33,552 bases of DNA from a virus (lineage: Duplodnaviria; Heunggongvirae; Uroviricota; Caudoviricetes). Location of the stretch: the IMG/VR virus record IMGVR_UViG_2585427747_000002, positions 1 to 33,552 of that record; one strand, 5' to 3'. Below, in pieces: positions 18,843-30,660 of this stretch. The first letter of the stretch is position 1; every line of letters starts with the position of its first letter. The notes below the pieces were generated by a model. It was not told the DNA's origin and did not search any database. It worked only from the letters and a program-made list of their open reading frames with translations. Made by a program: the position numbers and the translations under genes.

Positions 18843-19005
18843 GACTCCTCCTTGCTGCCAGTCGCAACCATTTTTTATCAACCAGGCTGGCGGTATATCC
18901 GAGCAGTGTTGGTATTTCGGATGGCTTCAGCTCAGGTTTACGCTTACGACGATTTGGTACTCTGTAGATGTGTCCGTTCATGACACGAATAAGCGGTGTA
19001 GCCAT
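18835..19005 (-). CDS. ninE: NinE-like protein (56 aa)
   Basis: Sub-60-aa ORF missing from the track: [56 protein letters not shown]; start overlaps ybcN stop (TAATG), stop overlaps ybcO start. Confidence 0.75.
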   Translation of the reverse strand: MATPLIRVMNGHIYRVPNRRKRKPELKPSEIPTLLGYTASLVDKKWLRLAARRSHG

Positions 19006-19460
19006 TACGCCTCCTGCTTGTCGCGCAGCAGCTGGAACTCGCAGCTCTGAGGAATAGTCAGATGGCAGCCAATATTCATCGCCCAGGCTTCAATCTTGCA
19101 CAGGAAGACATACATCTCTCCGGCATCAAGATCGGAGGTATGGCGTAATGACTGAATAGTGGTGATCTCACCGGATACGACATCAACCAGTTCTTTGGTT
19201 TCATAACCGAGATAAGTGTGTTTGAGAGCATCTTTTACCCATGCTGCGGTAGCGAACGATTTCCCCCTGCGGATAAGGTATTCACTGATTTCGCTGTACC
19301 ACATGTGGCTAAGTGCATTCTGGGAAAGACTGCGTCTCTCGCGCCACGGTTTAAGCACCATGCGAAAGCACTTGCCGTCTTCCAAATAAGGCTGGAGCTG
19401 CTGACCGATAGCGGTGAAGTTACCGCGATGCAGTTTGATGCCGTCTTGTGGGAGGTTCAC
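19005..19460 (-). CDS. ybcN: YbcN-like protein (DLP12 nin-region protein)
   Basis: 151 aa, [62 protein letters not shown]..., matches recalled DLP12 YbcN. Confidence 0.88.
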
Positions 19461-19579
19461 GCTTCACCTCCGCAGAGGTCAAACGCTGGATAAAGAATAT
19501 CGCAGGTGCATTTCTGCATCTGTGAATGGAGAAGAGAGGTTGGATTGTATGTGCGCATAAACGTCCCCGTTTAGCGCAG

Positions 19580-19612
19580 AAGTCACCGGAGTTGTTCAGG
19601 CTCCGGTGACTT
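19580..19612. repeat. Perfect 12-bp inverted repeat (AAGTCACCGGAG ... CTCCGGTGACTT) with 9-nt spacer
   Basis: Read directly from sequence; lies between the ybcN start and the end of the 181-aa cargo gene; no clean U-tract on either strand. Confidence 0.7.
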
Positions 19613-19651
19613 AATTATGACAAGTTGATTATGGAAAATCAAAGCTTGTCA

Positions 19652-20197
19652 TCAGAACAACGAATAATTTAAAAACTCTATAATTTCTAAGATTTTTTCA
19701 CTTATCGCTGGAATGAAACGTGAAGCAAAATAGAGCCCCAAAAAAACCAATATTGAGTACGAAACCGTGATAGCGACTCTGTATTTTTTCTCGCCTCGCT
19801 TCACTCTCTCCCACTCAGTTTTAAGAATACTGGAACTATATTCAAAATACTGTCTGACCACATCTGTAATGTTAGATGAGCGATCCATTTTTAAAATGTA
19901 ATCCTCAATGATTTTCAAAAGCTGAGACTCTTCATTAGTTAAGTTTTTACTGGATAATCTAAGCTTCACTTTTGCGGAAAGAAAATAAATTTTTCCAGCC
20001 ACCTCAGGGAGCTTCTCAGGCGGAGTCGTGCGTAATTGTAAAAAGTTCTCCATCAATTCGGCTAACTCTTCCCTTAAACCATCTATCCACGCTTGCCGAA
20101 ACTCAGATGTTTTATTCTCCTTAGTGATAACAAGCCCCACTCCAGCTGCAGCTGCGGCAATAATTGCGGCGACAACTGAGGCTATCCCTGCATCCAT
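19652..20197 (-). CDS. Hypothetical membrane protein (181 aa; N- and C-terminal hydrophobic helices), AT-rich cargo
   Basis: ORF MDAGIASVVAAIIAAAAAGVGLVITK...VAITVSYSILVFLGLYFASRFIPAI...; SD-like gagggg upstream of ATG; no family recognised. Confidence 0.6.
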   Translation of the reverse strand: MDAGIASVVAAIIAAAAAGVGLVITKENKTSEFRQAWIDGLREELAELMENFLQLRTTPPEKLPEVAGKIYFLSAKVKLRLSSKNLTNEESQLLKIIEDYILKMDRSSNITDVVRQYFEYSSSILKTEWERVKRGEKKYRVAITVSYSILVFLGLYFASRFIPAISEKILEIIEFLNYSLF

Positions 20198-20214
20198 GAA
20201 TTACCCCTCAAAAC

Positions 20215-20238
20215 AATATGAATATGAATATGAATATG
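20215..20238. repeat. Tandem hexanucleotide repeat (AATATG)x4
   Basis: Four perfect tandem copies at 20215-20238, 18-41 nt upstream of the 181-aa gene start codon (20195-20197, minus strand). Confidence 0.9.
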
Positions 20239-20342
20239 ATTCGATGTCTTCAGCAATTGAAAACTAAAACTCCCTGTAATGTCACATCTGCCCATGAATG
20301 TGTTTTCTTCATACAGCTTTGCTGCAATATCTAAATCAGACA

Positions 20343-20669
20343 TTAGTCAGCGGTTCTCCCGCGCCAGCGTTTGTTACTTTCTGATATTCTTTCTGTATCA
20401 ACAGATTCAACCTCACCTTCTGAAAACCTAACTGCATTAGCTTTAGCCATTGCCTTCCTAGCATCTTCTTCCGCCTGGCTAAAATGCACCTTCTTTCTTC
20501 CCTTGAAACTACCAACGCGAATTTTGGAAGAGGCCTGCGTCTTGTACTTGCTAATCCGTAATTGTGCCGCCAAATGGGCTTTTGCCTCGGTGCGGTTCGC
20601 TGGCTTCTTCTTTACTAATTCAAGGTCTAAATGGTACTGCTGCTCAGCTCTTAGTTTCTTCGGTTTCAT
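20343..20669 (-). CDS. Hypothetical basic protein (108 aa), AT-rich cargo
   Basis: ATG start MKPKKLRAEQQYHLDLELVKKK... preceded by gagag SD; the track ORF begins at an upstream TTG. Lys/Arg-rich; no family recognised. Confidence 0.5.
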   Translation of the reverse strand: MKPKKLRAEQQYHLDLELVKKKPANRTEAKAHLAAQLRISKYKTQASSKIRVGSFKGRKKVHFSQAEEDARKAMAKANAVRFSEGEVESVDTERISESNKRWRGRTAD

Positions 20670-21037
20670 AATATCACTCTCAAACAAAGTCCATTTATCA
20701 TAGAATAAAAGCCCTCTAAGAGCTTTGATTTGTATCTATGCTAATTCCCGTCAATTTGTTCTTCATTTTACCTCCAGCTGTTGTGCTGCTGCAGTGGCAT
20801 TCAATAGTTTTCCTTCTAAGCATCCTACAAAATCGGTGACGAGTCATGACCAGTTCACGTAGTGCAATGAAATTACTGCAATCTATTATGACGCAAATGC
20901 GTCAATACTCGAATCAACTGATCATCCTGCCACGACTGAAATCTCAAATAGGCCGTTTCTCAAGTAAGAGATTTTGAATGCATTATTGGCTACTGAAAAA
21001 AAACCAGCGCCAACTGGGTTCATATGAAATTTTTTTG

Positions 21038-21532
21038 TCATTTCCAATTGCAAGACTGTGAAATTTTTTCCACAACCTTATCAATCTCAGACAAGTCAAA
21101 CTCAACTACTTGCATAGTTGATCCATAAGGTTCAAACCCAAAAATAGCTTTTTTATGCTTAGCCAAGGTCTTTATAAATTGTATTGGTTGTGGAGCAAAT
21201 GCAGAATCACCGCCTTCCCCACCTCCCCAAACACTCTTGACCGGCTTTCCGCCATCTAACCGCACTGTAATTCTTGGGTTGTCCGAACCCATATAATCAT
21301 TGAATGATAAATAGGCATCTGTTTTGTTATCACTACAACGCAACACCAGTGAAGTTGCACGATCAGTACCTGCTTTGTTATATGAATCTGGTGATAAATT
21401 AAGAGCCACAAAGTCAGTCTGGTCAGTCATTTTATTCATCTCAGACTTTGTTATCCACGGCCCTAACTTCTCTACACCAGCATTTGCTGTAAACGAGGCA
21501 CTTATGACAAAGGCTAAAATAAATTTTCTCAT
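21038..21532 (-). CDS. Hypothetical secreted protein (164 aa) with Sec-type signal peptide, AT-rich cargo
   Basis: N-terminus MRKFILAFVISASFTANA|GVEK (signal-peptide-like, no lipobox Cys); AAGGAG SD 8 nt upstream; no family recognised. Confidence 0.6.
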   Translation of the reverse strand: MRKFILAFVISASFTANAGVEKLGPWITKSEMNKMTDQTDFVALNLSPDSYNKAGTDRATSLVLRCSDNKTDAYLSFNDYMGSDNPRITVRLDGGKPVKSVWGGGEGGDSAFAPQPIQFIKTLAKHKKAIFGFEPYGSTMQVVEFDLSEIDKVVEKISQSCNWK

Positions 21533-21678
21533 AACCCTATCTCCTTGGATTTAAAGAACTAAATATTATCAAGTCTCTTGCCACTAGAAAACCCACTTTA
21601 TTTCCAAACTCTGACGGCATTCCTGAAAATCCGCTTCATACTCACTTGCCCCGCCCTATCATCCTGAGTAGCTAACCG

Positions 21679-21852
21679 TTAAACAAACGTTCGCCAGACC
21701 TTACCATCAATGACCAAGATTCCTGCCCGCGCCATTTTAGCCGCAGCCTGATTTATGCTGGTTACTGTAGCGCCTGTTACCGCGGCAACGTCCTGCGCAC
21801 AGAAGCTCTTATGCGTCCCCAGGTAATAAATAATTGCCTCTTTGCCCGTCAT
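21679..21852 (-). pseudogene. ren: ren, truncated (57 codons, lambda Ren is about 96 aa)
   Basis: Translated by hand: MTGKEAIIYYLGTHKSFCAQDVAAVTGATVTSINQAAAKMARAGILVIDGKVWRTFV*; start overlaps P stop (ATGA); similarity to lambda Ren ends where the AT-rich cargo begins. Confidence 0.7.
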
Positions 21853-22550
21853 ACACTTGCTCCTTTCAGCCCAAACTTAGCTTTGATTTCTGCGATCTTC
21901 GCCAGAGCCTGTGCACGATTTAGAGGTCTACCGCCCATGACAGGAAGTTGTTTTACTGGTTCAGGTATCGCCTCACCACGGTTAATTCGCGCGGTCATAC
22001 AAGTCAGTTCATCGGCAGCCTTGCGCCGTAATTCCGTATCAGTAAGCGCATTGGCCCGCATATTCTGGTACAGGCTAGTAACCAGCCAGTAGTGCGCGTT
22101 TGATTTCCACGGATAAGACTCTGCATCCGGATACAGGCCACGCTTCCGGCAATACTCGTAAACCATATCAACCAGCTCGCTGGCGTTTGGCAGTCCGGCA
22201 ATAACAGATGCTTCTTCACGACACCAGGCAACAAACTGCCCGGGTGATGGCAGGAATGGTCGATTCTGCCGACGGGCTACGCGCATTCCAGCGTTAACCT
22301 GTTCCATCGTGGTGATCCCATTTTCCCGGAAAGCCAGAACCCACTGGCGGCGGATTTCGTTCAGTTCATTCTGGTCCCGGTTAGCCAGGCTCGCCGGGAA
22401 AGTAGCCAGTAACTGGCTGAACACACCATTGATAATCTGCGCTACCTGCTGTACCTGCGGCTTTTCGTCGTACTGTTCCGGCATGTTATTGGCGATCCGG
22501 CGCATCTGCTCACGGTCAAAGTTAACCATCTGTGCGGCGATGTTTTTCAT
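21849..22550 (-). CDS. P: Replication protein P (DnaB helicase loader)
   Basis: 233 aa, MKNIAAQMVNFDREQMRRIANNMPEQYDEKPQVQQVAQIINGVFSQLLATFPASLANRDQNE..., near-identical to recalled lambda P. Confidence 0.95.
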   Translation of the reverse strand: MKNIAAQMVNFDREQMRRIANNMPEQYDEKPQVQQVAQIINGVFSQLLATFPASLANRDQNELNEIRRQWVLAFRENGITTMEQVNAGMRVARRQNRPFLPSPGQFVAWCREEASVIAGLPNASELVDMVYEYCRKRGLYPDAESYPWKSNAHYWLVTSLYQNMRANALTDTELRRKAADELTCMTARINRGEAIPEPVKQLPVMGGRPLNRAQALAKIAEIKAKFGLKGASV

Positions 22551-23476
22551 AGCTCCACCCCGTAAATCCAGTCAGTGTTCGTCAGGTCGAATTTTGGTTT
22601 GCCGGCTGTCACGCCAGCCTGTTGCTTGTTACGGTTGATTTCGAGTTGGGTCCACTTGTCGCGGAGTTTGGCCGGACTTAGCACGTTACCGGACCAGAAG
22701 TTGTCCTGGCATGCCCAGCGGAACAGCACGCACATGTCGCGGTGGTTACGTCCGTCACGTTCACGCATCAGGCGGATATCGTTAGCCCACCCTGCAAAAT
22801 TCGGTTTTCTGGCTGATGGCGCGATGGTCTTCACCATGTCAAACATCCACTCTGCGGCGGTCAGGTCTTCTGCTGTCCCCCACTTGCTGCCGCTCTGAAT
22901 TGCAGCATCTGGTTTCACCACAGGAAGATCGTTTTCTGGTTGGTCAGAGGATTCGCCAGAATTCTCGGACGAAAAAGGTTTTATATTGTCTTTTGTTAGT
23001 TTGTCTTTTGTGTTTACCTGATTCGGGTAAACGCCTTTACCTGATTTGGGTAAACTTTTCTTACCTGATTCAGGTAAATTTACCTCTTTCAGGTAAACTT
23101 TATTTTTCTTACCTGATTCGGGTAATGTTGACCATTCACTGACCACATTATTAATACCGATATTCCGCCCGCTCTGAATCAAAATCCCACGCTTTACCAG
23201 AACACTTTTTGCAGCAGAACACTTGTGCGGCAATATCCCGGTCAATTCGGACAGTTGCTCGTTGCTCACCCAATCCAGTTTTTTATTAAAACCATATGTT
23301 TTGCGCATGACAGCCAGGAAGACCAGAAGCTGGTGCTGTGTTAATCCGGCCAGCATCACAGCTTCCAGCAACTCATTTGCAATGCGCGTATAACCATCAT
23401 CGAGATCTGCCACGCGCCGCTCCTTTTGTGCCTCATCCGGCACTGGAAAATTGAATATCTCAGCAGTGTTTGCCAT
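22547..23476 (-). CDS. O: Replication initiator O (origin-binding); N-terminal domain lambda O-like, remainder divergent
   Basis: Start MANTAEIFNFPVPDEAQKERRVADLDDGYTRIANELLEA preceded by GGAAGG SD (track ORF has a 30-codon upstream extension); contains ori iterons; 3' end overlaps P start. Confidence 0.85.
   Translation of the reverse strand: MANTAEIFNFPVPDEAQKERRVADLDDGYTRIANELLEAVMLAGLTQHQLLVFLAVMRKTYGFNKKLDWVSNEQLSELTGILPHKCSAAKSVLVKRGILIQSGRNIGINNVVSEWSTLPESGKKNKVYLKEVNLPESGKKSLPKSGKGVYPNQVNTKDKLTKDNIKPFSSENSGESSDQPENDLPVVKPDAAIQSGSKWGTAEDLTAAEWMFDMVKTIAPSARKPNFAGWANDIRLMRERDGRNHRDMCVLFRWACQDNFWSGNVLSPAKLRDKWTQLEINRNKQQAGVTAGKPKFDLTNTDWIYGVEL
22981..23126. repeat. ori: Replication origin inside O: five ~19-bp iterons (TTACCTGATTCGGGTAAAC-like, each an imperfect palindrome) at 23014-23126 plus AT-rich tract 22981-23013
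   Basis: Iterons read at 23014-23032, 23037-23055, 23061-23079, 23080-23098, 23109-23126; AT-rich stretch follows in the direction of O transcription, as in ori-lambda. Confidence 0.85.
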
Positions 23477-23562
23477 AATTCCTTCCGCAATGAGTGCGTT
23501 ACGATTTGCACCTGAAAGTCGGTTCTGTTCCAGCAGACCGGCTTTCGCCATTTCTGAACCTG

Positions 23563-24102
23563 TCATATCGCCCCCAGCATGGTAGTAACCATCGCCATCA
23601 ATGGACCAGCCAGATCTGGGTCCACACGAAACATCGACACAATACCTTCACTAATTTCCTTCAGTTTCTGGTGGCGTGGTGCGTTGAGAATGACAGCCTG
23701 TTTTGCCTCACTGAGTTCCTTTTCCATTTCAGCCAACCTAGCCATGAAGCTATCCTGCTCAACCAGGTAACCGCGATATTCCAGCGGTAGTACCGCCAGG
23801 ATTGCCGGGGTCAGTTCACGCACGTTATTTCGGTATTTTTCAGAATCGAATTTGTTATCGAGGAAGCGGAACAGCTTCTGGCGTGCACGGCTGACATCAT
23901 CAGGGAAATCGATGGTGCCGCCGCCCTGCTCCCGATACTCATTCACAATGAGTGTGGCAACGACATCCTGATTATCTTCAGCCGACCAGGCGCGGACGGC
24001 ATCACGGATTTTTTCGTGGCCTGGCACCTGTTTTGTTTGAGAACGATTTATCACCGCAGTCGGGCTAAATCCGCTAGTCTGTTGGTATGTAAGTGGTTGC
24101 AT
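23563..24102 (-). CDS. cII-position regulatory protein (179 aa; much longer than lambda CII, possibly CP76/YdaT-like)
   Basis: Lies between cro and O; AAGGAG SD 7 nt upstream; lambda CII is 97 aa, so this is a different protein family in the same position. Family name is a guess. Confidence 0.5.
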   Translation of the reverse strand: MQPLTYQQTSGFSPTAVINRSQTKQVPGHEKIRDAVRAWSAEDNQDVVATLIVNEYREQGGGTIDFPDDVSRARQKLFRFLDNKFDSEKYRNNVRELTPAILAVLPLEYRGYLVEQDSFMARLAEMEKELSEAKQAVILNAPRHQKLKEISEGIVSMFRVDPDLAGPLMAMVTTMLGAI

Positions 24103-24506: not shown

Positions 24507-25196
24507 ATGAAAACAACACTCTCAGAAAGACTTAAAGAAGCCAGATTAGCGCGAGGCCTTACACAAAAGGCGCTTGGGGATTTGGTCGGGGTTAGCCAAG
24601 CTGCTATTCAGAAAATCGAAACAGGGAAAGCTAATCAAACAACTAAAATCGTGGAGATCGCGAACGCTTTGGGTGTGCGCGCAGAATGGTTATCTTCTGG
24701 CGTTGGAAATATGTCAGACAGTACAGTGCAACCAATACAACCAACTGTCAGCCATTCCAAATACTTTAAGATTGACGTTCTTGATATAGAAGTGAGTGCC
24801 GGGCCGGGTGTCATCAACCGTGAGTTTGTAGAAGTTCTACGTTCGGTTGAGTATTCGTTTGACGATGCTCGTCACATGTTCGATGGCAGGAAGGCGGAAA
24901 ATATCCGCATCATTAACGTACGCGGTGACAGCATGTCAGGAACGATTGAACCTGGTGATCTGCTGTTCGTTGATATCACGGTTAAATCTTTCGACGGTGA
25001 TGGTATCTATGCGTTTCTGTACGACGACACAGCCCATGTAAAGCGCCTGCAAATGATGAAGGATAAGCTGCTGGTTATCTCTGATAACAAGAGCTACTCA
25101 CCGTGGGACCCGATCGAGAAAGACGAGATGAACCGGGTGTTCATCTTCGGTAAGGTTATTGGGAGCATGCCCCAGACGTACAGGAAACATGGATAA
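24507..25196 (+). CDS. cI: CI repressor (N-terminal HTH, C-terminal LexA/S24-type autocleavage domain)
   Basis: 229 aa, MKTTLSERLKEARLARGLTQKALGDLVGVSQAAIQKIETGK... and C-terminal ...NVRGDSMSGTIEPGDLLFVD...AHVKRLQ... (Ser/Lys dyad context); not lambda immunity specificity. Confidence 0.9.
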   Translation: MKTTLSERLKEARLARGLTQKALGDLVGVSQAAIQKIETGKANQTTKIVEIANALGVRAEWLSSGVGNMSDSTVQPIQPTVSHSKYFKIDVLDIEVSAGPGVINREFVEVLRSVEYSFDDARHMFDGRKAENIRIINVRGDSMSGTIEPGDLLFVDITVKSFDGDGIYAFLYDDTAHVKRLQMMKDKLLVISDNKSYSPWDPIEKDEMNRVFIFGKVIGSMPQTYRKHG

Positions 25197-25262: not shown

Positions 25263-26126
25263 ATGGATTGTGACGCTTTACAGGATATAAAAATCTCTCT
25301 TAGGTATGACGGAAAAGATGCTTTAAATCATGAAATAGATTTGAACTGCCTAGGAGAATCCCTAAAGGGTTTTTCTAAAGTTCTCTCAACAGCAGCTTCT
25401 TTCTCTGTTACACAAAAATATAGTAAATACATTAATTATCAGGAAGTTAAGGTTTACGCACGCGAAGCAAAAGCTAACTGCTTTACTCTTGAAGCAGTTC
25501 TTAACTTCGCCACTCAGAACCAGTTGTTCTCGGGGATCGCCGCAACTATACTTGGCGCAATACTACAATATATTTTTGCGAGAAATTCTAACAAGAAAGA
25601 TGAAATGAAAGCTTTGCAGCAGTCACTTGAAAAGGCCATAGAGGCACTAGGAAACAAGGATGCTGGAACCATTGATAAGTTGATCTCTTTGATTGACCGA
25701 ATGGCTGTAGAGCTTCGCCCCTCTGTAAGGCAGGCAGTATCACCTATTGGTAATACTTGCGATCAGATAAGTGTTGCAACAAATGTTGACGGCTGCCTTC
25801 TAAAAGTTAACGAGAGAGATAAAGCTGAAATTGATAGGCTTGATGATGATGAAGTTCTCGGTCTTCGTGAGTATCGTGCTTTTCTTACAGAATTTGATGC
25901 ACAAAATATGACAGCTAAAATAATTTTAGATGGTGATGACTCAAAAAAGAGAATCACTGCTGAAATTAGCGATCCAGCTGCAGGAAAGAAGAATAACCCG
26001 TATATTAGAGCTCTTAGTGCATATATATCAACCAAAGGTGATCCATCTGCAGTATTCACTATAACCGCAAAGGCTACTGTTAAAAAAGGCCAGATAAACA
26101 GGTTATTTATTGTAGATGCGAAATGA
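25263..26126 (+). CDS. Hypothetical protein (287 aa), AT-rich, in the rexAB position downstream of cI
   Basis: [31 protein letters not shown]... with one central hydrophobic segment ([19 protein letters not shown]); gagag SD; followed by an intrinsic terminator; no family recognised. Confidence 0.7.
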
Positions 26127-28650: not shown

Positions 28651-28805
28651 CGCATCCTCACGATAATATCCGGGTAGGCGCGATCACTTTCGTCTACTCC
28701 GTTACAAAGCGAGGCTGGGTATTTCCCGGGCTTTCTGTTATCCGAAATCCGCTGAAAGCCCAGCGGCTGGCTGAGGAGATAAATAATAAACGGGAGGCGG
28801 TATGA
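28647..28805 (+). CDS. Small hypothetical protein (52 aa), translationally coupled between exo and the PAPS-reductase gene
   Basis: Sub-60-aa ORF missing from the track: [52 protein letters not shown]; ATGA overlaps at both ends. Confidence 0.45.
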
Positions 28806-30046
28806 ACGAGGCAGCAATAATTATTGTCCCAACAGACATCAGCAAGAAAATTCGCGAAATAGAAGAGTCCTACAACAGATATATAAATGAATTTCGCATC
28901 CCTAATGATCATAAGATAATCGTGAATTATTCAGCAGGAAAAGACAGCACTGCCACACTCGCAGTGGCGCACACATTATTCGGCAAACAGGTACATGCTG
29001 TTATGGCAGACACGGATAATGAGCATAATCTAACTGTCGAATTCGCCAGGAGCATTCATGAGCAGATCGGTTGTAGCCCTGTGCAGGTTGTGAAGCGGAT
29101 TTACACTGAAGAAGATTTTACCAAACGACGAATTTATCTGCAAAAAAACTGGTCTAAACGACAGATGATCCGCATGGGAGCATACCGTGGCATAGTCATG
29201 CCTTCCCTCGCACGTTCTGACACCAAATTCGGGCAAGCCTGGAAGCGCACAGCAGAACGCTGGGGAATTGAGTTCGAAACTGCTCTTGATGCTGCGCTTT
29301 CCGTTATGCACCCATCCGGTAATAGCTTTTTGGATTGCTCCCTTCTGCATGGCAAGTTCCCTATGCTGCGCGACCGATTCTGTACAGACGAACTGAAAAT
29401 TCAGATAGCTTTCGACGCAGCCATAAAGCCGCTCCTTGATGCTGGCGATGTTATCGTACAATGGTCTGGTGTTCGCGCGGATGAGTCCTCTAAGCGCGCT
29501 GGATATGAGAGGTTTTCCCGCGATATGCGCGACGCCGATTTTCTCTACAACTTCCTGCCGCTCCACAAATGGACGGCTGAGGACGTATTCGCAGTTCACA
29601 AATATTTCGGAATTAAGCCAAATCCACTTTATATGCAAGGTGCGTCTCGTGTTGGCTGCATGAATTGCGTGCTATGCAACAAAGAGGAAATTGCAGAGAC
29701 GGCTGCGCGCTGGCCAGAGCACATCAAAAAGCACAAACAATGGGAGTTGAAGGTACGCCTTGCTAGTAGATGGGTACACTGGATGAGCGTAGGAGAGATA
29801 AGCCAACGCTGGATGAAACAGTTCAATCTGCCACTTGGTCGAAATATTCAACTTTTTGGGCTAAAACCTGATGTGCAACACATCGACTGGTCAGGATTTT
29901 ATGGTCCTCGTGGAGATCTTAATTCTCCGGGTGTTTATGAAGTCGTAGAGTGGGCAAAAACAGGGCGCGGTGGCAAGGTCTACGATCTTGTAAAAGCAAG
30001 TCTCGATATAGAGGTTTGCTCTTCACGCTACGGTCTGTGCGAATAA
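28802..30046 (+). CDS. PAPS-reductase-family protein (PP-loop ATP pyrophosphatase fold; IbrA/DndC-like)
   Basis: 414 aa with PP-loop motif (…NYSAGKDSTATL… near residue 43); length and architecture resemble prophage IbrA as recalled. No ParB-like partner gene follows. Confidence 0.7.
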   Translation: MNEAAIIIVPTDISKKIREIEESYNRYINEFRIPNDHKIIVNYSAGKDSTATLAVAHTLFGKQVHAVMADTDNEHNLTVEFARSIHEQIGCSPVQVVKRIYTEEDFTKRRIYLQKNWSKRQMIRMGAYRGIVMPSLARSDTKFGQAWKRTAERWGIEFETALDAALSVMHPSGNSFLDCSLLHGKFPMLRDRFCTDELKIQIAFDAAIKPLLDAGDVIVQWSGVRADESSKRAGYERFSRDMRDADFLYNFLPLHKWTAEDVFAVHKYFGIKPNPLYMQGASRVGCMNCVLCNKEEIAETAARWPEHIKKHKQWELKVRLASRWVHWMSVGEISQRWMKQFNLPLGRNIQLFGLKPDVQHIDWSGFYGPRGDLNSPGVYEVVEWAKTGRGGKVYDLVKASLDIEVCSSRYGLCE

Positions 30047-30057
30047 TACTAAGTTAT

Positions 30058-30660
30058 TTACTCATTATTTTTTGATAATACAACTTTCTGCCAAGTTATC
30101 TGGTTACGTTGAAAACTATCTTTATTTATTGACGTAACTCGCAATGTTTTCAGACCTAACTGAGACGCTAACTCAAGAAGTTCCTCAGTATTAACAACGT
30201 TAATGTTTCTATCTGGTTCGGGAGGTCCCAAGCGCAATGTAATTATCATTCTCCCATTCAATGTTAAAAGATCAGTTAGCGTCTCTAGTGAGATTTTTTG
30301 CTCTTTTTTTGAAAGATGCATCCATACAGCACTGACTAAAATAAGGTCGAACTTTAGATTCATTGCTTTAACACTATGAAGAAAAGGCAATGAATCATCT
30401 AACCATATAATATGGTTAGATTTATAATATGAAGATGCCAAATTTCGCATCTTTTCACTTGGTTCAACAGCTATTACTTTATAACCTAATTCATCTAACG
30501 CAGCAGCATCACGGCCGGAACCTGAACCGACATCCAAAGAGACACCCTTAGATTGTAAAATAAACTCTTCAACATCCTGAAAGATAGAGTAAAAATCAAG
30601 TGATATATAATCGGCAAATAAGCGATCAGCATTATTGTCATAAAACTTCCACGAAGTCAC
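30058..30660 (-). CDS. Class I SAM-dependent methyltransferase (200 aa; small-molecule / TehB-like type), AT-rich cargo
   Basis: Motif I LDVGSGSGRDAAALDELGYKVIAVEPS and post-I acidic residue, motif DLILVSAVWMHL; overlaps the upstream membrane-protein gene by 4 nt (operon). Confidence 0.7.
   Translation of the reverse strand: MTSWKFYDNNADRLFADYISLDFYSIFQDVEEFILQSKGVSLDVGSGSGRDAAALDELGYKVIAVEPSEKMRNLASSYYKSNHIIWLDDSLPFLHSVKAMNLKFDLILVSAVWMHLSKKEQKISLETLTDLLTLNGRMIITLRLGPPEPDRNINVVNTEELLELASQLGLKTLRVTSINKDSFQRNQITWQKVVLSKNNE

What the first reader, a model, noticed from the sequence alone, without database searches (positions are those of the whole stretch)
19461..21678. AT-rich cargo island of three orphan genes replacing part of the nin region, bounded by a truncated ren
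Between P/ren and the DLP12-like nin genes lies about 2.2 kb of AT-rich DNA encoding a Sec-secreted 164-aa protein, a 108-aa basic protein and a 181-aa protein with hydrophobic helices at both ends. ren is cut to 57 codons exactly where the island starts, which marks a recombination junction. The island also carries a tandem hexamer repeat and a 12-bp perfect inverted repeat. None of the three proteins matched a family I know. A secreted protein with membrane and basic partners could be an exclusion, immunity or host-interaction module.
Basis: partly seen in the sequence, partly recalled or inferred. Interest (0 to 1): 0.72.

Follow-up and report, generated by a model that had tools for sequence, protein, structure and literature searches.

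The report
Mosaic cargo slot of lambdoid prophage
The AT-rich stretch is real, but it is a patchwork of three unrelated phage accessory genes that travel separately and sit in a known variable slot of lambda-like prophages, so it is not a three-gene system and is ordinary as an island, although all three proteins remain uncharacterised.

Summary
The AT-rich stretch exists (39.5% GC against 50.5% for the window) and holds three intact minus-strand genes. The hexamer repeat and the 12-bp inverted repeat are also real.

- **ren:** it is not cut at codon 57. It carries a TAC-to-TAA nonsense change and a 1-nt deletion, and ren homology runs on to about 21590.
- **Inverted repeat:** it belongs to the conserved phage-82-type nin leader, not to the island.
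- **Module:** the three genes are not a unit. Each occurs elsewhere with different neighbours.

What the three cassettes are:

- **164-aa gene:** a classic moron with an extended -10-like box, a Sec-exported VasI/TagO–IalB-fold protein and a terminator. It is found in 84 of 5426 complete E. coli genomes, and in tail-gene and P2-end cargo slots of other prophages.
- **108-aa gene:** normally coupled to a phage DNA-polymerase-III theta gene. Here theta is truncated after 38 nt.
- **181-aa gene:** a solitary inner-membrane protein with a cytoplasmic four-helix bundle between two anchors. Its family has about 4800 clusters and no Pfam model or conserved partner.

Functions remain inferred. My best guess is envelope-level lysogenic conversion or superinfection exclusion. 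Interest is low to moderate.

The parts
21584..21852 (-). ren pseudogene. The open part is 57 codons (21679-21852). It is followed by ren-homologous DNA with a TAA in place of Tyr58 and a 1-nt deletion. Homology to intact ren fades at about 21590-21608.
   Evidence: Alignment with intact ren of phage PhiR30_1. blastn gives an end of homology at 21608. PGAP annotates 'frameshifted; internal stop' in relatives.
21563..21571 (-). Extended -10-like box TGATAATAT, 31 nt upstream of the 164-aa ATG. The AAGGAG ribosome-binding site is at 21541-21546. This is the candidate promoter of the moron and it straddles the ren junction.
   Evidence: Read from the sequence. A comparable TGnTAGGAT box lies upstream of the orthologous gene in Klebsiella and Pantoea prophages. 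The consensus scan did not call it, so this is an inference.
21038..21532 (-). 164-aa Sec-exported periplasmic protein of the VasI/TagO-like (IalB) fold, with two invariant Cys (C66, C161).
20996..21017 (-). Terminator-like site after the 164-aa gene: a 5-bp stem CCAGttggCTGG followed by T8.
   Evidence: Consensus scan. The hairpin is weak by energy (z = 0.25). Stronger terminators follow the orthologues in Klebsiella and Pantoea.
20891..21607 (-). Cassette 1 (the moron) as a homology block. It is shared at 97-98% with an E. coli HEPN-variant prophage (from 20891) and with phage IdasGreatGrand (from 20963).
   Evidence: blastn junction map; alignment A6.
20889..20904 (-). Palindrome TGACGCA-TT-TGCGTCA lying on the cassette 1/2 junction and overlapping a TTGACG hexamer.
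   Evidence: Read from the sequence. Function unknown.
20306..20793 (-). Cassette 2 as a homology block, 83% identical to the nin regions of Citrobacter and Enterobacter prophages. It comprises the last ~30 nt of an upstream gene, a terminator hairpin, the 108-aa gene and the first 38 nt of a theta gene.
   Evidence: blastn; alignments A1 and A6.
20708..20726 (-). Terminator-like hairpin just upstream of the 108-aa gene. It is kept in the Citrobacter loci with a differently sequenced stem.
   Evidence: -11.4 kcal/mol, z = -3.2; alignment A6.
20343..20669 (-). 108-aa basic protein (pI 10.3) with an invariant C-terminal tail KRWRGRTAD. It belongs to phrog_14068.
20182..20343 (-). 53-codon ORF that is not a gene. 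It consists of the first ~13 codons of a DNA polymerase III theta (HolE/Hot-like) gene fused to unrelated spacer. It overlaps the stop of the 108-aa gene (TAATG) and the start of the 181-aa gene.
   Evidence: Alignment with intact theta genes of L019 and L010. Homology ends at 20306. Intact theta follows the 108-aa gene in 9 E. coli genomes and in all six Citrobacter/Enterobacter loci.
20215..20239 (.). Hexamer microsatellite (CATATT on the coding strand) in the unique spacer 20208-20305, 18-42 nt upstream of the 181-aa start codon. Copy number varies between strains.
   Evidence: TRF. 4 copies against 3 copies between strains. Absent from the orthologous E. kobei locus.
19652..20197 (-). 181-aa inner-membrane protein built as TM1, cytoplasmic four-helix bundle, TM2, amphipathic tail. 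Invariant juxtamembrane motifs are TKE(N/Q)KxSEFRQxWI and LKxEWxRVKxGE.
   Evidence: (pLDDT 91.3).
19580..19642 (-). Conserved nin-leader element, not part of the island. It comprises TTGATT-N17-CATAAT (19642..19614) and the 12-bp-stem hairpin (19580-19612). Phage 82's record annotates this as a putative promoter plus a 'possible regulator-binding site'.
   Evidence: The hexamers are invariant in 7 loci, and the stem shows some compensatory changes.
19457..19558 (-). 33-codon ORF (ylcH / phage 82 orf33 type) overlapping the start of ybcN/orf151 (19005-19460).

Best explanation
The stretch is the variable accessory slot between the replication genes (O, P, ren) and the phage-82/DLP12-type nin genes of a lambdoid E. 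coli prophage. Recombination has filled it with three unrelated single-gene cassettes that do not work as one system.

**Cassette 1 (20891 to about 21590)** is a moron. It has its own extended -10-like promoter, a Sec-exported 164-aa VasI/TagO–IalB-fold periplasmic protein and a terminator, and it always travels with a dead ren. I infer that it is transcribed from the repressed prophage and acts in the periplasm on an envelope-spanning machine. The most likely target is the DNA-entry apparatus of superinfecting phages (about 0.35). A type VI secretion-related role is less likely (about 0.15).

**Cassette 2 (20306-20793)** is a fragment of another phage's nin region. It carries a basic 108-aa early protein whose usual translationally coupled partner, a phage theta (Pol III epsilon-binding) homologue, was cut off after 38 nt. 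I infer a nucleic-acid- or replisome-associated early function that is now possibly crippled.

**Cassette 3 (19644-20207)** is a solitary 181-aa inner-membrane protein. Both termini are outside, and a cytoplasmic four-helix bundle carries an invariant charged/aromatic patch at the membrane face. It belongs to a very large unannotated family scattered over variable regions of many phyla. I infer a stand-alone membrane-acting accessory protein with an exclusion or abortive-infection type of role (about 0.3).

**Shown:** the mosaic boundaries, the independent distributions, the pseudogenes, the folds and the topology signals.
**Inferred:** expression and all functions.
For: **Junctions**
- Homology to phage 82 and lambda-like phages stops at 19643 and resumes at 21608.
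- Internal block limits lie at 20207, 20306, 20793 and 20891/20963 (alignments).

**Independent distributions among 5426 complete E. coli genomes**
- The whole island is in 15 genomes, the 164-aa gene in 84, the 181-aa gene in 15 and the 108-aa gene in 24. In 9 of those 24 an intact theta gene follows.
- Downstream of the 164-aa gene, other genomes carry a HEPN gene plus a 133-aa gene, a 66-aa gene, an IS3 element, nothing annotated, or a run of small ORFs in the isolated phage IdasGreatGrand.
- Phage PhiR30_1 holds a lipoprotein and an acyltransferase in the same slot.

**Moron features of cassette 1**
- GC is 0.394 against 0.505.
- It has an extended -10-like box and a hairpin plus T8.
- Orthologues at 55-60% identity in Klebsiella and Pantoea prophages sit between the tail chaperone and the tape-measure gene, each with a TGnTAGGAT box and a terminator. 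That is the slot of the HK97 gp15 exclusion moron (PMC3594210).
- P2-like phages carry a 297-aa VasI protein at the prophage end.

**181-aa family**
- The profile search found 4785 clusters at E<=1e-3, and no Pfam family matches.
- There is no conserved neighbour in 71 genomes.
- Upstream partners differ between prophages.
- AF2 pLDDT is 91.
- K+R counts are 7.9 on the bundle side against 1.0 on the tails.
- Some homologues carry N-terminal signal or lipoprotein sequences plus collagen-like repeats before TM1.
Against: - No expression data exist. The consensus promoter scan did not call a promoter for any of the three genes, and the terminator after the 164-aa gene is weak by energy.
- In all 15 E. 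coli genomes that hold the 181-aa gene, the three genes occur together in this same order. A recently assembled functional combination therefore cannot be excluded from co-occurrence inside E. coli alone.
- No hit to any PADLOC defence model, and no experimental literature on any of the three proteins.
- Defence-type neighbours of the 181-aa family are few: 2 Gabija loci and 3 DUF7946 loci out of 71.
Confidence: 0.78

Rival explanations
1. The secreted, basic and membrane proteins form one co-functional exclusion, immunity or host-interaction module that was inserted as a unit and truncated ren.
For: The three genes are always found together and in the same order in the 15 complete E. coli genomes that carry the 181-aa gene. 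All three are on one strand. The 53-codon remnant ORF bridges the stop of the 108-aa gene and the start of the 181-aa gene.
Against: - Each gene has different neighbours everywhere else.
- Internal recombination junctions and a truncated theta gene lie between them.
- Two terminator-like sites separate the 164-aa gene from the other two.
- ren is inactivated by point lesions, not by the junction.
Confidence: 0.07
2. The 164-aa protein is a working type VI secretion accessory factor (TagO/VasI), or an orphan T6SS immunity-like protein. The prophage would supply it to modulate the host's T6SS or to protect the lysogen from T6SS attack.
For: The Pfam VasI hit lies at the gathering threshold, and PGAP names the protein TagO. 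It is periplasmic, as T6SS immunity proteins and VasI are. Phage-borne full-length VasI proteins exist in P2-like phages (89.6 bits).
Against: - The equivalog model TIGR03360 scores 14.4 bits against a cut-off of 124.2.
- Only the C-terminal 107 of the 184 VasI profile positions match.
- No T6SS genes are nearby, and every context found is a phage cargo slot.
- The function of TagO/VasI itself is listed as unknown (PMC13584744), so the name explains nothing.
Confidence: 0.13
3. The region is decaying junk in a defective prophage, and the three ORFs are on the way to pseudogenisation and have no function.
For: ren is a pseudogene and theta is truncated. IS elements have landed in the same slot in relatives. 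A slippage-prone repeat sits in the spacer.
Against: - All three ORFs are intact and 98.7-99.8% identical in 15 unrelated strains from eight host species.
- All three belong to families with strongly conserved motifs across genera or phyla.
- The isolated phage IdasGreatGrand keeps the 164-aa cassette.
- The window encodes a full complement of phage-sized ORFs and an integrase.
Confidence: 0.08
4. The 108-aa basic protein and the 181-aa membrane protein form a two-gene toxin-antitoxin or abortive-infection pair, replacing the HEPN pair found at the same place in other strains.
For: An allelic HEPN-domain gene plus a 133-aa gene occupies the same position in other E. coli prophages. A small basic protein followed by a membrane protein is a common toxin-antitoxin or Abi layout.
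Against: - The two families never co-occur elsewhere. The 108-aa proteins found near 181-aa homologues in Citrobacter-like loci are unrelated.
- 108-aa homologues are followed by theta instead.
- A truncated theta remnant and a unique spacer separate the two genes.
- No PADLOC hit.
Confidence: 0.05

Closest known systems
Morons of lambdoid phages (Juhala/Hendrix definition; the type example is HK97 gene 15, a superinfection-exclusion protein)
   Same: - Cassette 1 differs in GC from its surroundings and is present or absent among close relatives.
- It is bracketed by a promoter-like box and a terminator.
- It encodes an envelope-targeted protein.
- Its orthologues in Klebsiella and Pantoea prophages sit in the same slot as HK97 gene 15, between the tail chaperone and the tape-measure gene (PMC3594210).
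   Different: - There is no sequence or fold relation to gp15. gp15 is a small inner-membrane protein, whereas this is a soluble periplasmic beta-rich protein.
- Expression from the repressed prophage and exclusion activity are untested.
T6SS accessory protein VasI/TagO (Pfam PF11319, TIGR03360) and Bartonella IalB (PF06776, PDB 3dtd)
   Same: - It is a Sec-exported periplasmic protein with a marginal PF11319 match.
- A full-length phage VasI protein also touches the IalB profile.
   Different: - It is shorter than VasI and covers only the C-terminal part of the VasI profile.
- It fails the NCBIfam equivalog cut-off.
- It is never next to T6SS genes in the loci examined.
- Neither VasI/TagO nor IalB has a known mechanism.
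DLP12 ybcL-ybcM cargo and other fillings of the P/ren-to-ylcH/ybcN slot of lambdoid prophages (from my own knowledge of the K-12 DLP12 map, plus loci seen here)
   Same: The position is the same, immediately upstream of ylcH-ybcN-ninE-ybcO-rusA-ylcG-Q. Contents vary between phages. DLP12 also places a secreted protein (YbcL) there.
   Different: The genes are different, and there is no homology to ybcL or ybcM.
Four-helix-bundle sensor modules flanked by two TM helices (NarQ/NarX, QseE, Tar/MCP ligand-binding domains)
   Different: - Topology appears inverted, with the bundle cytoplasmic and the termini outside.
- There is no output domain.
- There is no sequence relation.
- The conserved residues cluster at the membrane-proximal end rather than at a distal ligand pocket.
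Phage DNA polymerase III theta homologues (HolE-like, as in phage P1 Hot; Pfam PF06440)
   Same: The usual downstream partner of the 108-aa gene is a PF06440 gene overlapping it by TAATG. The window keeps its first 38 nt.
   Different: The theta gene here is destroyed, and the 108-aa protein itself has no known family beyond phrog_14068.

Membership tests
T6SS-associated TagO/VasI | Match to the family profile at or above the curated threshold | tested here: inconclusive
   Pfam PF11319 scores 26.7 bits against a gathering score of 26.5, covering profile positions 78-184 of 184 only. NCBIfam equivalog TIGR03360 scores 14.4 bits against a cut-off of 124.2, which is not met.
T6SS-associated TagO/VasI | Encoded within or beside a T6SS gene cluster | tested here: not met
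   The gene lies between the ren pseudogene and the nin genes of a prophage. The annotated neighbours in near-identical E. coli loci are all phage genes. Orthologues lie in tail modules or at P2-type prophage ends.
T6SS-associated TagO/VasI | Exported to the periplasm | tested here: met
   It has an N-terminal MRK + hydrophobic + ANA|G signal, read from the sequence. pLDDT is below 50 for residues 1-17. Two Cys are invariant. No dedicated signal-peptide predictor was available.
Moron (autonomous accessory transcription unit in a phage genome) | Base composition differs from flanking phage genes | tested here: met
   GC is 0.394 for the gene and 0.395 for the island, against 0.505 for the window.
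Moron (autonomous accessory transcription unit in a phage genome) | Present or absent between otherwise homologous phage genomes | tested here: met
   It is present in 84 of 5426 E. coli genomes. It is absent from phage 82, PhiR30_1 and others that share the flanks.
Moron (autonomous accessory transcription unit in a phage genome) | Own promoter | tested here: inconclusive
   An extended -10-like TGATAATAT lies at 21563-21571, and analogous TGnTAGGAT boxes lie upstream of the orthologues in two other genomic contexts. The -35 is poor, and the consensus scan did not report the site.
Moron (autonomous accessory transcription unit in a phage genome) | Own terminator | tested here: met
   A stem plus T8 lies at 21017..20996, although it is weak by energy. 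Clear GC-rich hairpins with T-runs follow the orthologues in Klebsiella and Pantoea.
Moron (autonomous accessory transcription unit in a phage genome) | Expressed from the repressed prophage | not testable with these tools
   This needs RNA-seq or 5'-RACE of an uninduced lysogen.
Lambda nin-region genes (NinA-NinI types) | Sequence homology of the three proteins to Nin families | tested here: not met
   None of the three hits a Nin family in Pfam, NCBIfam or PHROGs. The flanking genes do hit NinB-like/PRK09741 and YbcO.
Multi-gene defence or toxin-antitoxin system | Conserved co-occurrence and order of the component genes across lineages | tested here: not met
   The neighbours of each gene differ outside this one E. 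coli prophage lineage. No PADLOC model is hit.
Periplasmic four-helix-bundle sensor domains (NarX/QseE/MCP type) | Fold: antiparallel four-helix bundle between two TM helices | tested here: met
Periplasmic four-helix-bundle sensor domains (NarX/QseE/MCP type) | Bundle located in the periplasm and coupled to a cytoplasmic output domain | tested here: not met
   The positive-inside count puts the bundle in the cytoplasm, with 7.9 K+R on the bundle-side flanks against 1.0 on the tails over 51 sequences. Some homologues have signal or lipoprotein sequences plus collagen-like repeats before TM1. The protein ends 18 residues after TM2, so there is no output domain.
Ren (lambda Rex-exclusion escape protein) | Intact ~97-codon reading frame | tested here: not met
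   There is a stop at codon 58 and a 1-nt deletion downstream. The last ~9 codons are replaced.
DNA polymerase III theta / Hot (PF06440), for the 53-codon ORF | Full-length theta domain | tested here: not met
   Only the first 38 nt align with intact theta genes, and the rest is unrelated spacer.

The most novel reading that the evidence does not exclude
Two of the cassettes may represent unrecognised classes of single-gene envelope defences.

- The 181-aa family has about 4800 clusters at 50% identity across Proteobacteria, Acidobacteria, Nitrospira, Verrucomicrobia and Bacteroidota, and it has no Pfam model. It would be a new stand-alone inner-membrane effector whose cytoplasmic four-helix bundle senses infection and perturbs the membrane.
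- VasI/IalB-fold morons are found in three different cargo slots of three phage types. They would be periplasmic blockers of phage DNA entry. That would also give a first functional handle on the enigmatic T6SS protein TagO/VasI.
Probability: 0.2. Interest if true: 0.6.

Novelty: new member of a known kind. Interest (0 to 1): 0.3.

Why it matters
As an island it is one more example of the mosaic cargo slot at the replication/nin boundary of lambdoid prophages, and that does not change any picture.

Its value lies in three concrete, cheap-to-test leads:

- **VasI/TagO-fold protein.** It recurs as an autonomous moron in lambdoid, HK97-like-tail and P2-like prophages. Finding what it does in a lysogen could also illuminate the unexplained T6SS accessory protein TagO/VasI and Bartonella IalB.
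- **181-aa family.** It is a very large, sharply conserved, unannotated membrane-protein family with an unusual predicted topology.
- **108-aa protein.** It is a conserved basic early protein genetically coupled to phage theta.

The work also corrects an over-specific database name ('TagO') and an incorrect inference about ren.

Tried and rejected
- **Defence models.** PADLOC models for the three proteins gave only noise.
- **PDB by sequence.** Profile searches for all three families found nothing below E=0.1.
- **Rfam.** Nothing at gathering score on the whole window, and only a chance hit at E=0.5 on the island at permissive threshold.
- **Literature.** A search by protein accessions and PHROG id returned no papers. 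Searches for a described lambdoid ren/ninB defence hotspot turned up only P2/P4 hotspot papers.
- **Fusion partners of the 181-aa family.** Only signal or lipoprotein sequences with collagen-like N-terminal extensions and uncharacterised C-terminal tails were found. Weak 'Bestrophin-like' PF14023 hits in two members (E about 1e-3, below the cut-off) were treated as chance.
- **Conserved neighbours of the 181-aa family.** None exists in 71 genomes; the largest neighbour cluster covers 5 loci, four or more of them alphaproteobacteria (Sphingomonas, Sphingomicrobium, Rhodovarius).
- **Possible 108-aa/181-aa linkage.** The 108-aa ORFs beside 181-aa homologues in Citrobacter-like loci looked like evidence of linkage, but they are unrelated proteins of the same length.
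- **The 53-codon ORF.** I considered it as a fourth gene and rejected it as a theta remnant.
- **Hexamer repeat as a promoter-spacing switch.** I considered this. No convincing -35/-10 pair flanks it, and it is absent from orthologous loci.


Full report
**1. What is there**

All genes of this part of the window run on the minus strand. In transcription order they are:

- O-like replication gene (22547-23566)
- P (21849-22550)
- a 57-codon ren ORF (21679-21852)
- a 164-aa ORF (21038-21532)
- a 108-aa ORF (20343-20669, as PGAP starts it in near-identical genomes)
- a 181-aa ORF (19652-20197)
- a 33-codon ylcH/orf33-type ORF (19457-19558)
- ybcN/orf151 (19005-19460), followed by ninE, ybcO, rusA, ylcG and a 229-aa Q-sized ORF

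GC is 0.395 for 19644-21590, against 0.505 for the window and about 0.50 on either flank. The hexamer array (20215-20239, 4.2 perfect copies) and the 12-bp perfect inverted repeat (19580-19612) are both present. The physical observation therefore holds.

**2. Boundaries and the ren claim**

blastn against fetched relatives shows that homology to phage 82, PhiR30_1 and many lambda-like phages ends at 19643 and resumes at 21608.

Alignment with an intact ren (phage PhiR30_1, 97 codons) shows that the window's ren continues to be homologous past its stop codon.
- Codon 58 is TAA where the intact gene has TAC.
- A 1-nt deletion follows.
- Similarity fades only at about 21590, roughly codon 88.

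The same lesions are present in E. coli strain 48 and in the isolated phage IdasGreatGrand. PGAP annotates 'protein ren, frameshifted; internal stop' next to the 164-aa gene in every genome I opened. ren was therefore inactivated by point lesions.

On the other side, three features belong to the conserved nin leader rather than to the island: the promoter-like TTGATT-N17-CATAAT (19642..19614), the inverted repeat and orf33.
- The GenBank record of phage 82 annotates them as a putative promoter plus a 'possible regulator-binding site'.
- In seven loci, including prophages without any of the island genes, the two hexamers are invariant. The hairpin is kept with some compensatory changes around a conserved CUGAACAAC loop.
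- The hairpin is stable (-20.1 kcal/mol, z = -4.5) but lacks a T-run.

**3. The island is a patchwork**

The junction map and alignments divide it into blocks with separate histories.

*Block 1 (20891 to about 21607): the 164-aa gene.*
- It is 97-98% identical to an E. coli prophage in which a HEPN-domain gene plus a 133-aa gene follows instead.
- It is equally close to phage IdasGreatGrand, where a string of small ORFs follows.
- Among 5426 complete E. coli genomes the gene occurs in 84.
- In four further genomes the downstream content was nothing annotated, a 66-aa gene, an IS3 element, or IS-disrupted DNA.

*Block 2 (20306-20793): the 108-aa gene.*
- It is 83% identical to the nin regions of Citrobacter and Enterobacter prophages.
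- It contains the last ~30 nt of an upstream gene, a terminator-like hairpin, the 108-aa gene and the first 38 nt of a DNA polymerase III theta gene. In those prophages the theta gene overlaps the 108-aa stop as TAATG.
- The hairpin (20726..20708; -11.4 kcal/mol, z = -3.2) keeps its structure with a different stem sequence in those loci.
- In 9 E. coli genomes an 82-84% identical copy of the 108-aa gene is likewise followed by an annotated theta gene.
- The window's 53-codon ORF (20182-20343) is therefore a theta stump fused to spacer, not a fourth gene.

*Spacer (20208-20305).*
- This stretch is unique and holds the hexamer array.
- The array has 4 copies here and in strain 48 and 3 copies in three other strains.
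- It is absent from the orthologous Enterobacter kobei locus. I read it as a slippage-prone microsatellite with no demonstrated role.

*Block 3 (19644-20207): the 181-aa gene.*
- In E. kobei and other metagenomic prophages (72-77% protein identity) it is contiguous with the same nin leader and nin genes.
- There it is preceded by different genes: a 94-aa ORF, a 270-aa Trypsin_2 protease or a 93-aa ORF.
- More distant copies in Klebsiella, Pantoea and Citrobacter prophages follow a dATP/dGTP pyrophosphohydrolase, a 64-aa ORF or a theta fragment.
- The 108-aa ORFs near it in the Citrobacter-like loci are unrelated proteins of the same length.
- In E. coli the 181-aa gene is found in only 15 complete genomes, always in the window's arrangement.

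Phage PhiR30_1 fills the same slot with a lipoprotein and an acyltransferase. The slot is thus a recombinational hot spot for cargo, and the present combination is one rare assembly of it.

**4. The 164-aa protein**

*Sequence features.*
- It has a typical Sec signal (MRKFILAFVISASFTANA|G).
- Two Cys are invariant in 25 homologues.

*Family matches.*
- It matches phrog_1848 full-length (3.8e-70).
- It matches Pfam VasI PF11319 just at threshold (26.7 against 26.5 bits) over the C-terminal 107 profile positions.
- It fails the NCBIfam VasI equivalog by a wide margin (14.4 against 124.2 bits).

*Fold.*
- The AF2 model (pLDDT 78.6, pTM 0.75) is a beta-rich domain with two helices.
- A 297-aa full-length VasI protein of P2-like phages (89.6 bits) also touches the IalB Pfam profile, which supports a VasI–IalB fold relationship.
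- Foldseek against viral models returns only uncharacterised phage proteins.

*Naming.* A 2026 review lists TagO/VasI as an accessory factor of unknown function (PMC13584744). 'TagO' is therefore a label, not an explanation. I do not file this protein as a T6SS component, because the defining genomic association is not met.

*Genomic context, the informative part.*
- Orthologues at 55-60% identity in Klebsiella pneumoniae and Pantoea prophages lie between the tail assembly chaperone (DUF6246) and the tape-measure gene.
- Each is preceded by a TGnTAGGAT extended -10-like box and followed by a GC-rich hairpin plus T-run.
- That is the slot of HK97 gene 15, the founding 'moron', which excludes superinfecting phage DNA. 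Morons are defined by deviating GC content, their own promoter and terminator, and expression from the repressed prophage (PMC3594210).
- P2-like phages carry the 297-aa version at the prophage end after ogr.
- In the window the gene is preceded by TGATAATAT (21563-21571) and AAGGAG, and followed by a 5-bp stem plus T8. That terminator is weak by energy.

I conclude that cassette 1 is a moron. Architecture and mobility are shown; expression is inferred. The product probably acts in the periplasm of the lysogen. My preferred mechanism is interference with DNA entry by superinfecting phages (about 0.35). This rests on the analogy of slot and compartment and on the fact that the fold's solved relatives are periplasmic proteins. 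A T6SS-related role is the main alternative (about 0.15).

**5. The 108-aa protein**

- It is basic (pI 10.3), hydrophilic and restricted to Enterobacterales prophages (44 clusters).
- It has a conserved N-terminal helix-like segment and an invariant C-terminal tail ...NKRWRGRTAD.
- It has no structural or family match beyond phrog_14068.
- In all six Citrobacter/Enterobacter loci examined it sits in the nin region, directly and overlappingly upstream of theta. The nine diverged E. coli copies are also followed by theta.
- I infer an early-expressed protein that binds nucleic acid or the replisome and works with phage theta. In this window its partner is destroyed. This is the weakest inference in the report.

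**6. The 181-aa protein**

*Family size and conservation.*
- The word-indexed search found 332 homologues.
- The exhaustive profile search found 4785 clusters at E<=1e-3, 2315 at <=1e-10 and 739 at <=1e-30.
- A scan of one genome per species found relatives in Proteobacteria, Acidobacteria, Nitrospira, Verrucomicrobia and Bacteroidota.
- No Pfam, NCBIfam or PADLOC family matches.
- Seventeen positions are invariant in 51 diverse sequences. They are concentrated in TKE(N/Q)KxSEFRQxWI just after TM1 and LKxEWxRVKxGE just before TM2, plus an LRL(N) motif.

*Topology.* It appears opposite to those sensors.
- Over 51 sequences, the 15 residues on the bundle side of the two TM helices carry 3.1 and 4.8 K+R, against 0.08 and 0.9 on the N- and C-tails.
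- Several homologues have a signal peptide or lipobox plus collagen-like Gly-X-Y repeats before TM1.
- The bundle is therefore cytoplasmic and both termini are outside. By the geometry of the bundle, the invariant residues sit at the membrane-proximal end.

*Neighbourhood.*
- There is no conserved neighbour in 71 genomes; the largest neighbour cluster covers 5 loci, four or more of them alphaproteobacteria (Sphingomonas, Sphingomicrobium, Rhodovarius).
- Immediate neighbours are a mix of housekeeping genes, integrases, two bona fide Gabija GajA genes, and DUF7946/7947, DUF6988/DUF5677 and theta genes.
- This is the pattern of a stand-alone gene that lands in variable regions. It is compatible with a single-gene exclusion or abortive-infection effector, but far from proof of one. 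I put that reading at about 0.3.

*Expression in the window.* The gene has no convincing promoter of its own. The good TTGAGT-N18-TATAAT seen upstream of the E. kobei orthologue is lost here. It probably depends on read-through of the early rightward transcript.

**7. Verdict on the interpretation**

The 'cargo' reading is right. The 'module' reading is not supported.

The exact three protein sequences are already in public databases from many E. coli contigs, as 'hypothetical protein', 'phage protein' or 'TagO'. No paper mentions them.

**8. Novelty and score**

As a genomic feature this is a new instance of a well-known kind, the mosaic accessory region or moron slot of lambdoid prophages. 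The three proteins are uncharacterised. Two of them, the VasI-fold moron and the large 181-aa family, are reasonable candidates for envelope-level phage exclusion. Nothing here would surprise a phage genomicist. Interest is 0.3. The more novel reading (new single-gene envelope defences, and a functional handle on TagO/VasI) has a probability of about 0.2.

Noticed in passing
window 25263-26126 (+): A 287-aa DUF7946 + DUF7947 protein (187 and 67 bits) lies directly downstream of the cI-like repressor (24507-25196), which is the rexAB-equivalent slot. It has a weak PADLOC hit to defence candidate PDC-S42 (E=1.5e-4). In the near-identical prophage of E. coli strain 48 this slot holds a HipA-family kinase plus DUF3037 instead.
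   Followed up: partly
L075:918-1772, L080:5062-5904, L113:5043-5876 (and window 25263-26126): DUF7946/DUF7947 proteins are the divergently transcribed immediate neighbours (65-124 nt apart) of 181-aa-family genes in three alphaproteobacteria from different families (Brevundimonas, Sphingomonas, Xanthobacteraceae). The window carries both gene types about 5 kb apart. This may be chance, or the two may share the same kind of variable island.
   Followed up: partly
window 28802-30046 (+) and 30058-30660 (-): A 414-aa PAPS-reductase-domain protein resembles SspD/DndC/BrxP-type models (PADLOC 5.7e-19). A 200-aa SAM methyltransferase matches the PADLOC model mad2 (system mads_2, 7.4e-15). Both lie in the recombination/early-left region next to RecT and YqaJ genes.
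   Followed up: no
window 20215-20239: The hexamer array varies in copy number between otherwise ~99% identical prophages: 4 copies here and in E. coli 48, 3 copies in EC77, AR_0061 and O157:H16 Santai. It lies 18-42 nt upstream of the 181-aa start codon.
   Followed up: yes
window 19559-19655 (-): In the nin leader, TTGATT-N17-CATAAT is invariant in seven lambdoid loci. A small TTGATT/AATCAA inverted repeat overlaps the -35. The 12-bp hairpin keeps its CUGAACAAC loop while the stem shows compensatory changes in two loci. It looks like a conserved regulatory element of phage-82-type nin regions whose role is still only 'possible regulator-binding site'.
   Followed up: partly
window 20889-20904 (-): The palindrome TGACGCA-TT-TGCGTCA lies on the junction between the 164-aa cassette and the next block. 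The HEPN-variant prophage has only the left arm.
   Followed up: no
L028-L035 (Klebsiella, Pantoea prophages); L116, L117 (P2-like phages): VasI-like secreted proteins recur as cargo in two other phage slots. One is between the tail chaperone and the tape-measure gene. The other is at the prophage end of P2-like phages, after ogr and beside a MokW/hok-like gene and a zinc-ribbon protein.
   Followed up: partly
proteins P0253, P0268, P0316, P0317 (181-aa family): Some family members carry an N-terminal signal peptide or lipobox followed by collagen-like GPPGPPG repeats before TM1. Others carry 100-aa C-terminal extensions after TM2.
   Followed up: partly
protein collection, cluster of window:21038-21532: The 90%-identity cluster that holds the 164-aa protein also lists many 233-aa replication protein P sequences, and its representative is a P protein. 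This is evidently a clustering artefact, perhaps from a fused gene call across ren. One hit (P0165, 196 aa) is likewise an N-terminally extended call.
   Followed up: no
L002:4383-5179: The allelic filling of the same slot in other E. coli prophages is an overlapping pair: a 138-aa HEPN-domain protein and a 133-aa hypothetical protein. The layout resembles a toxin-antitoxin pair.
   Followed up: no
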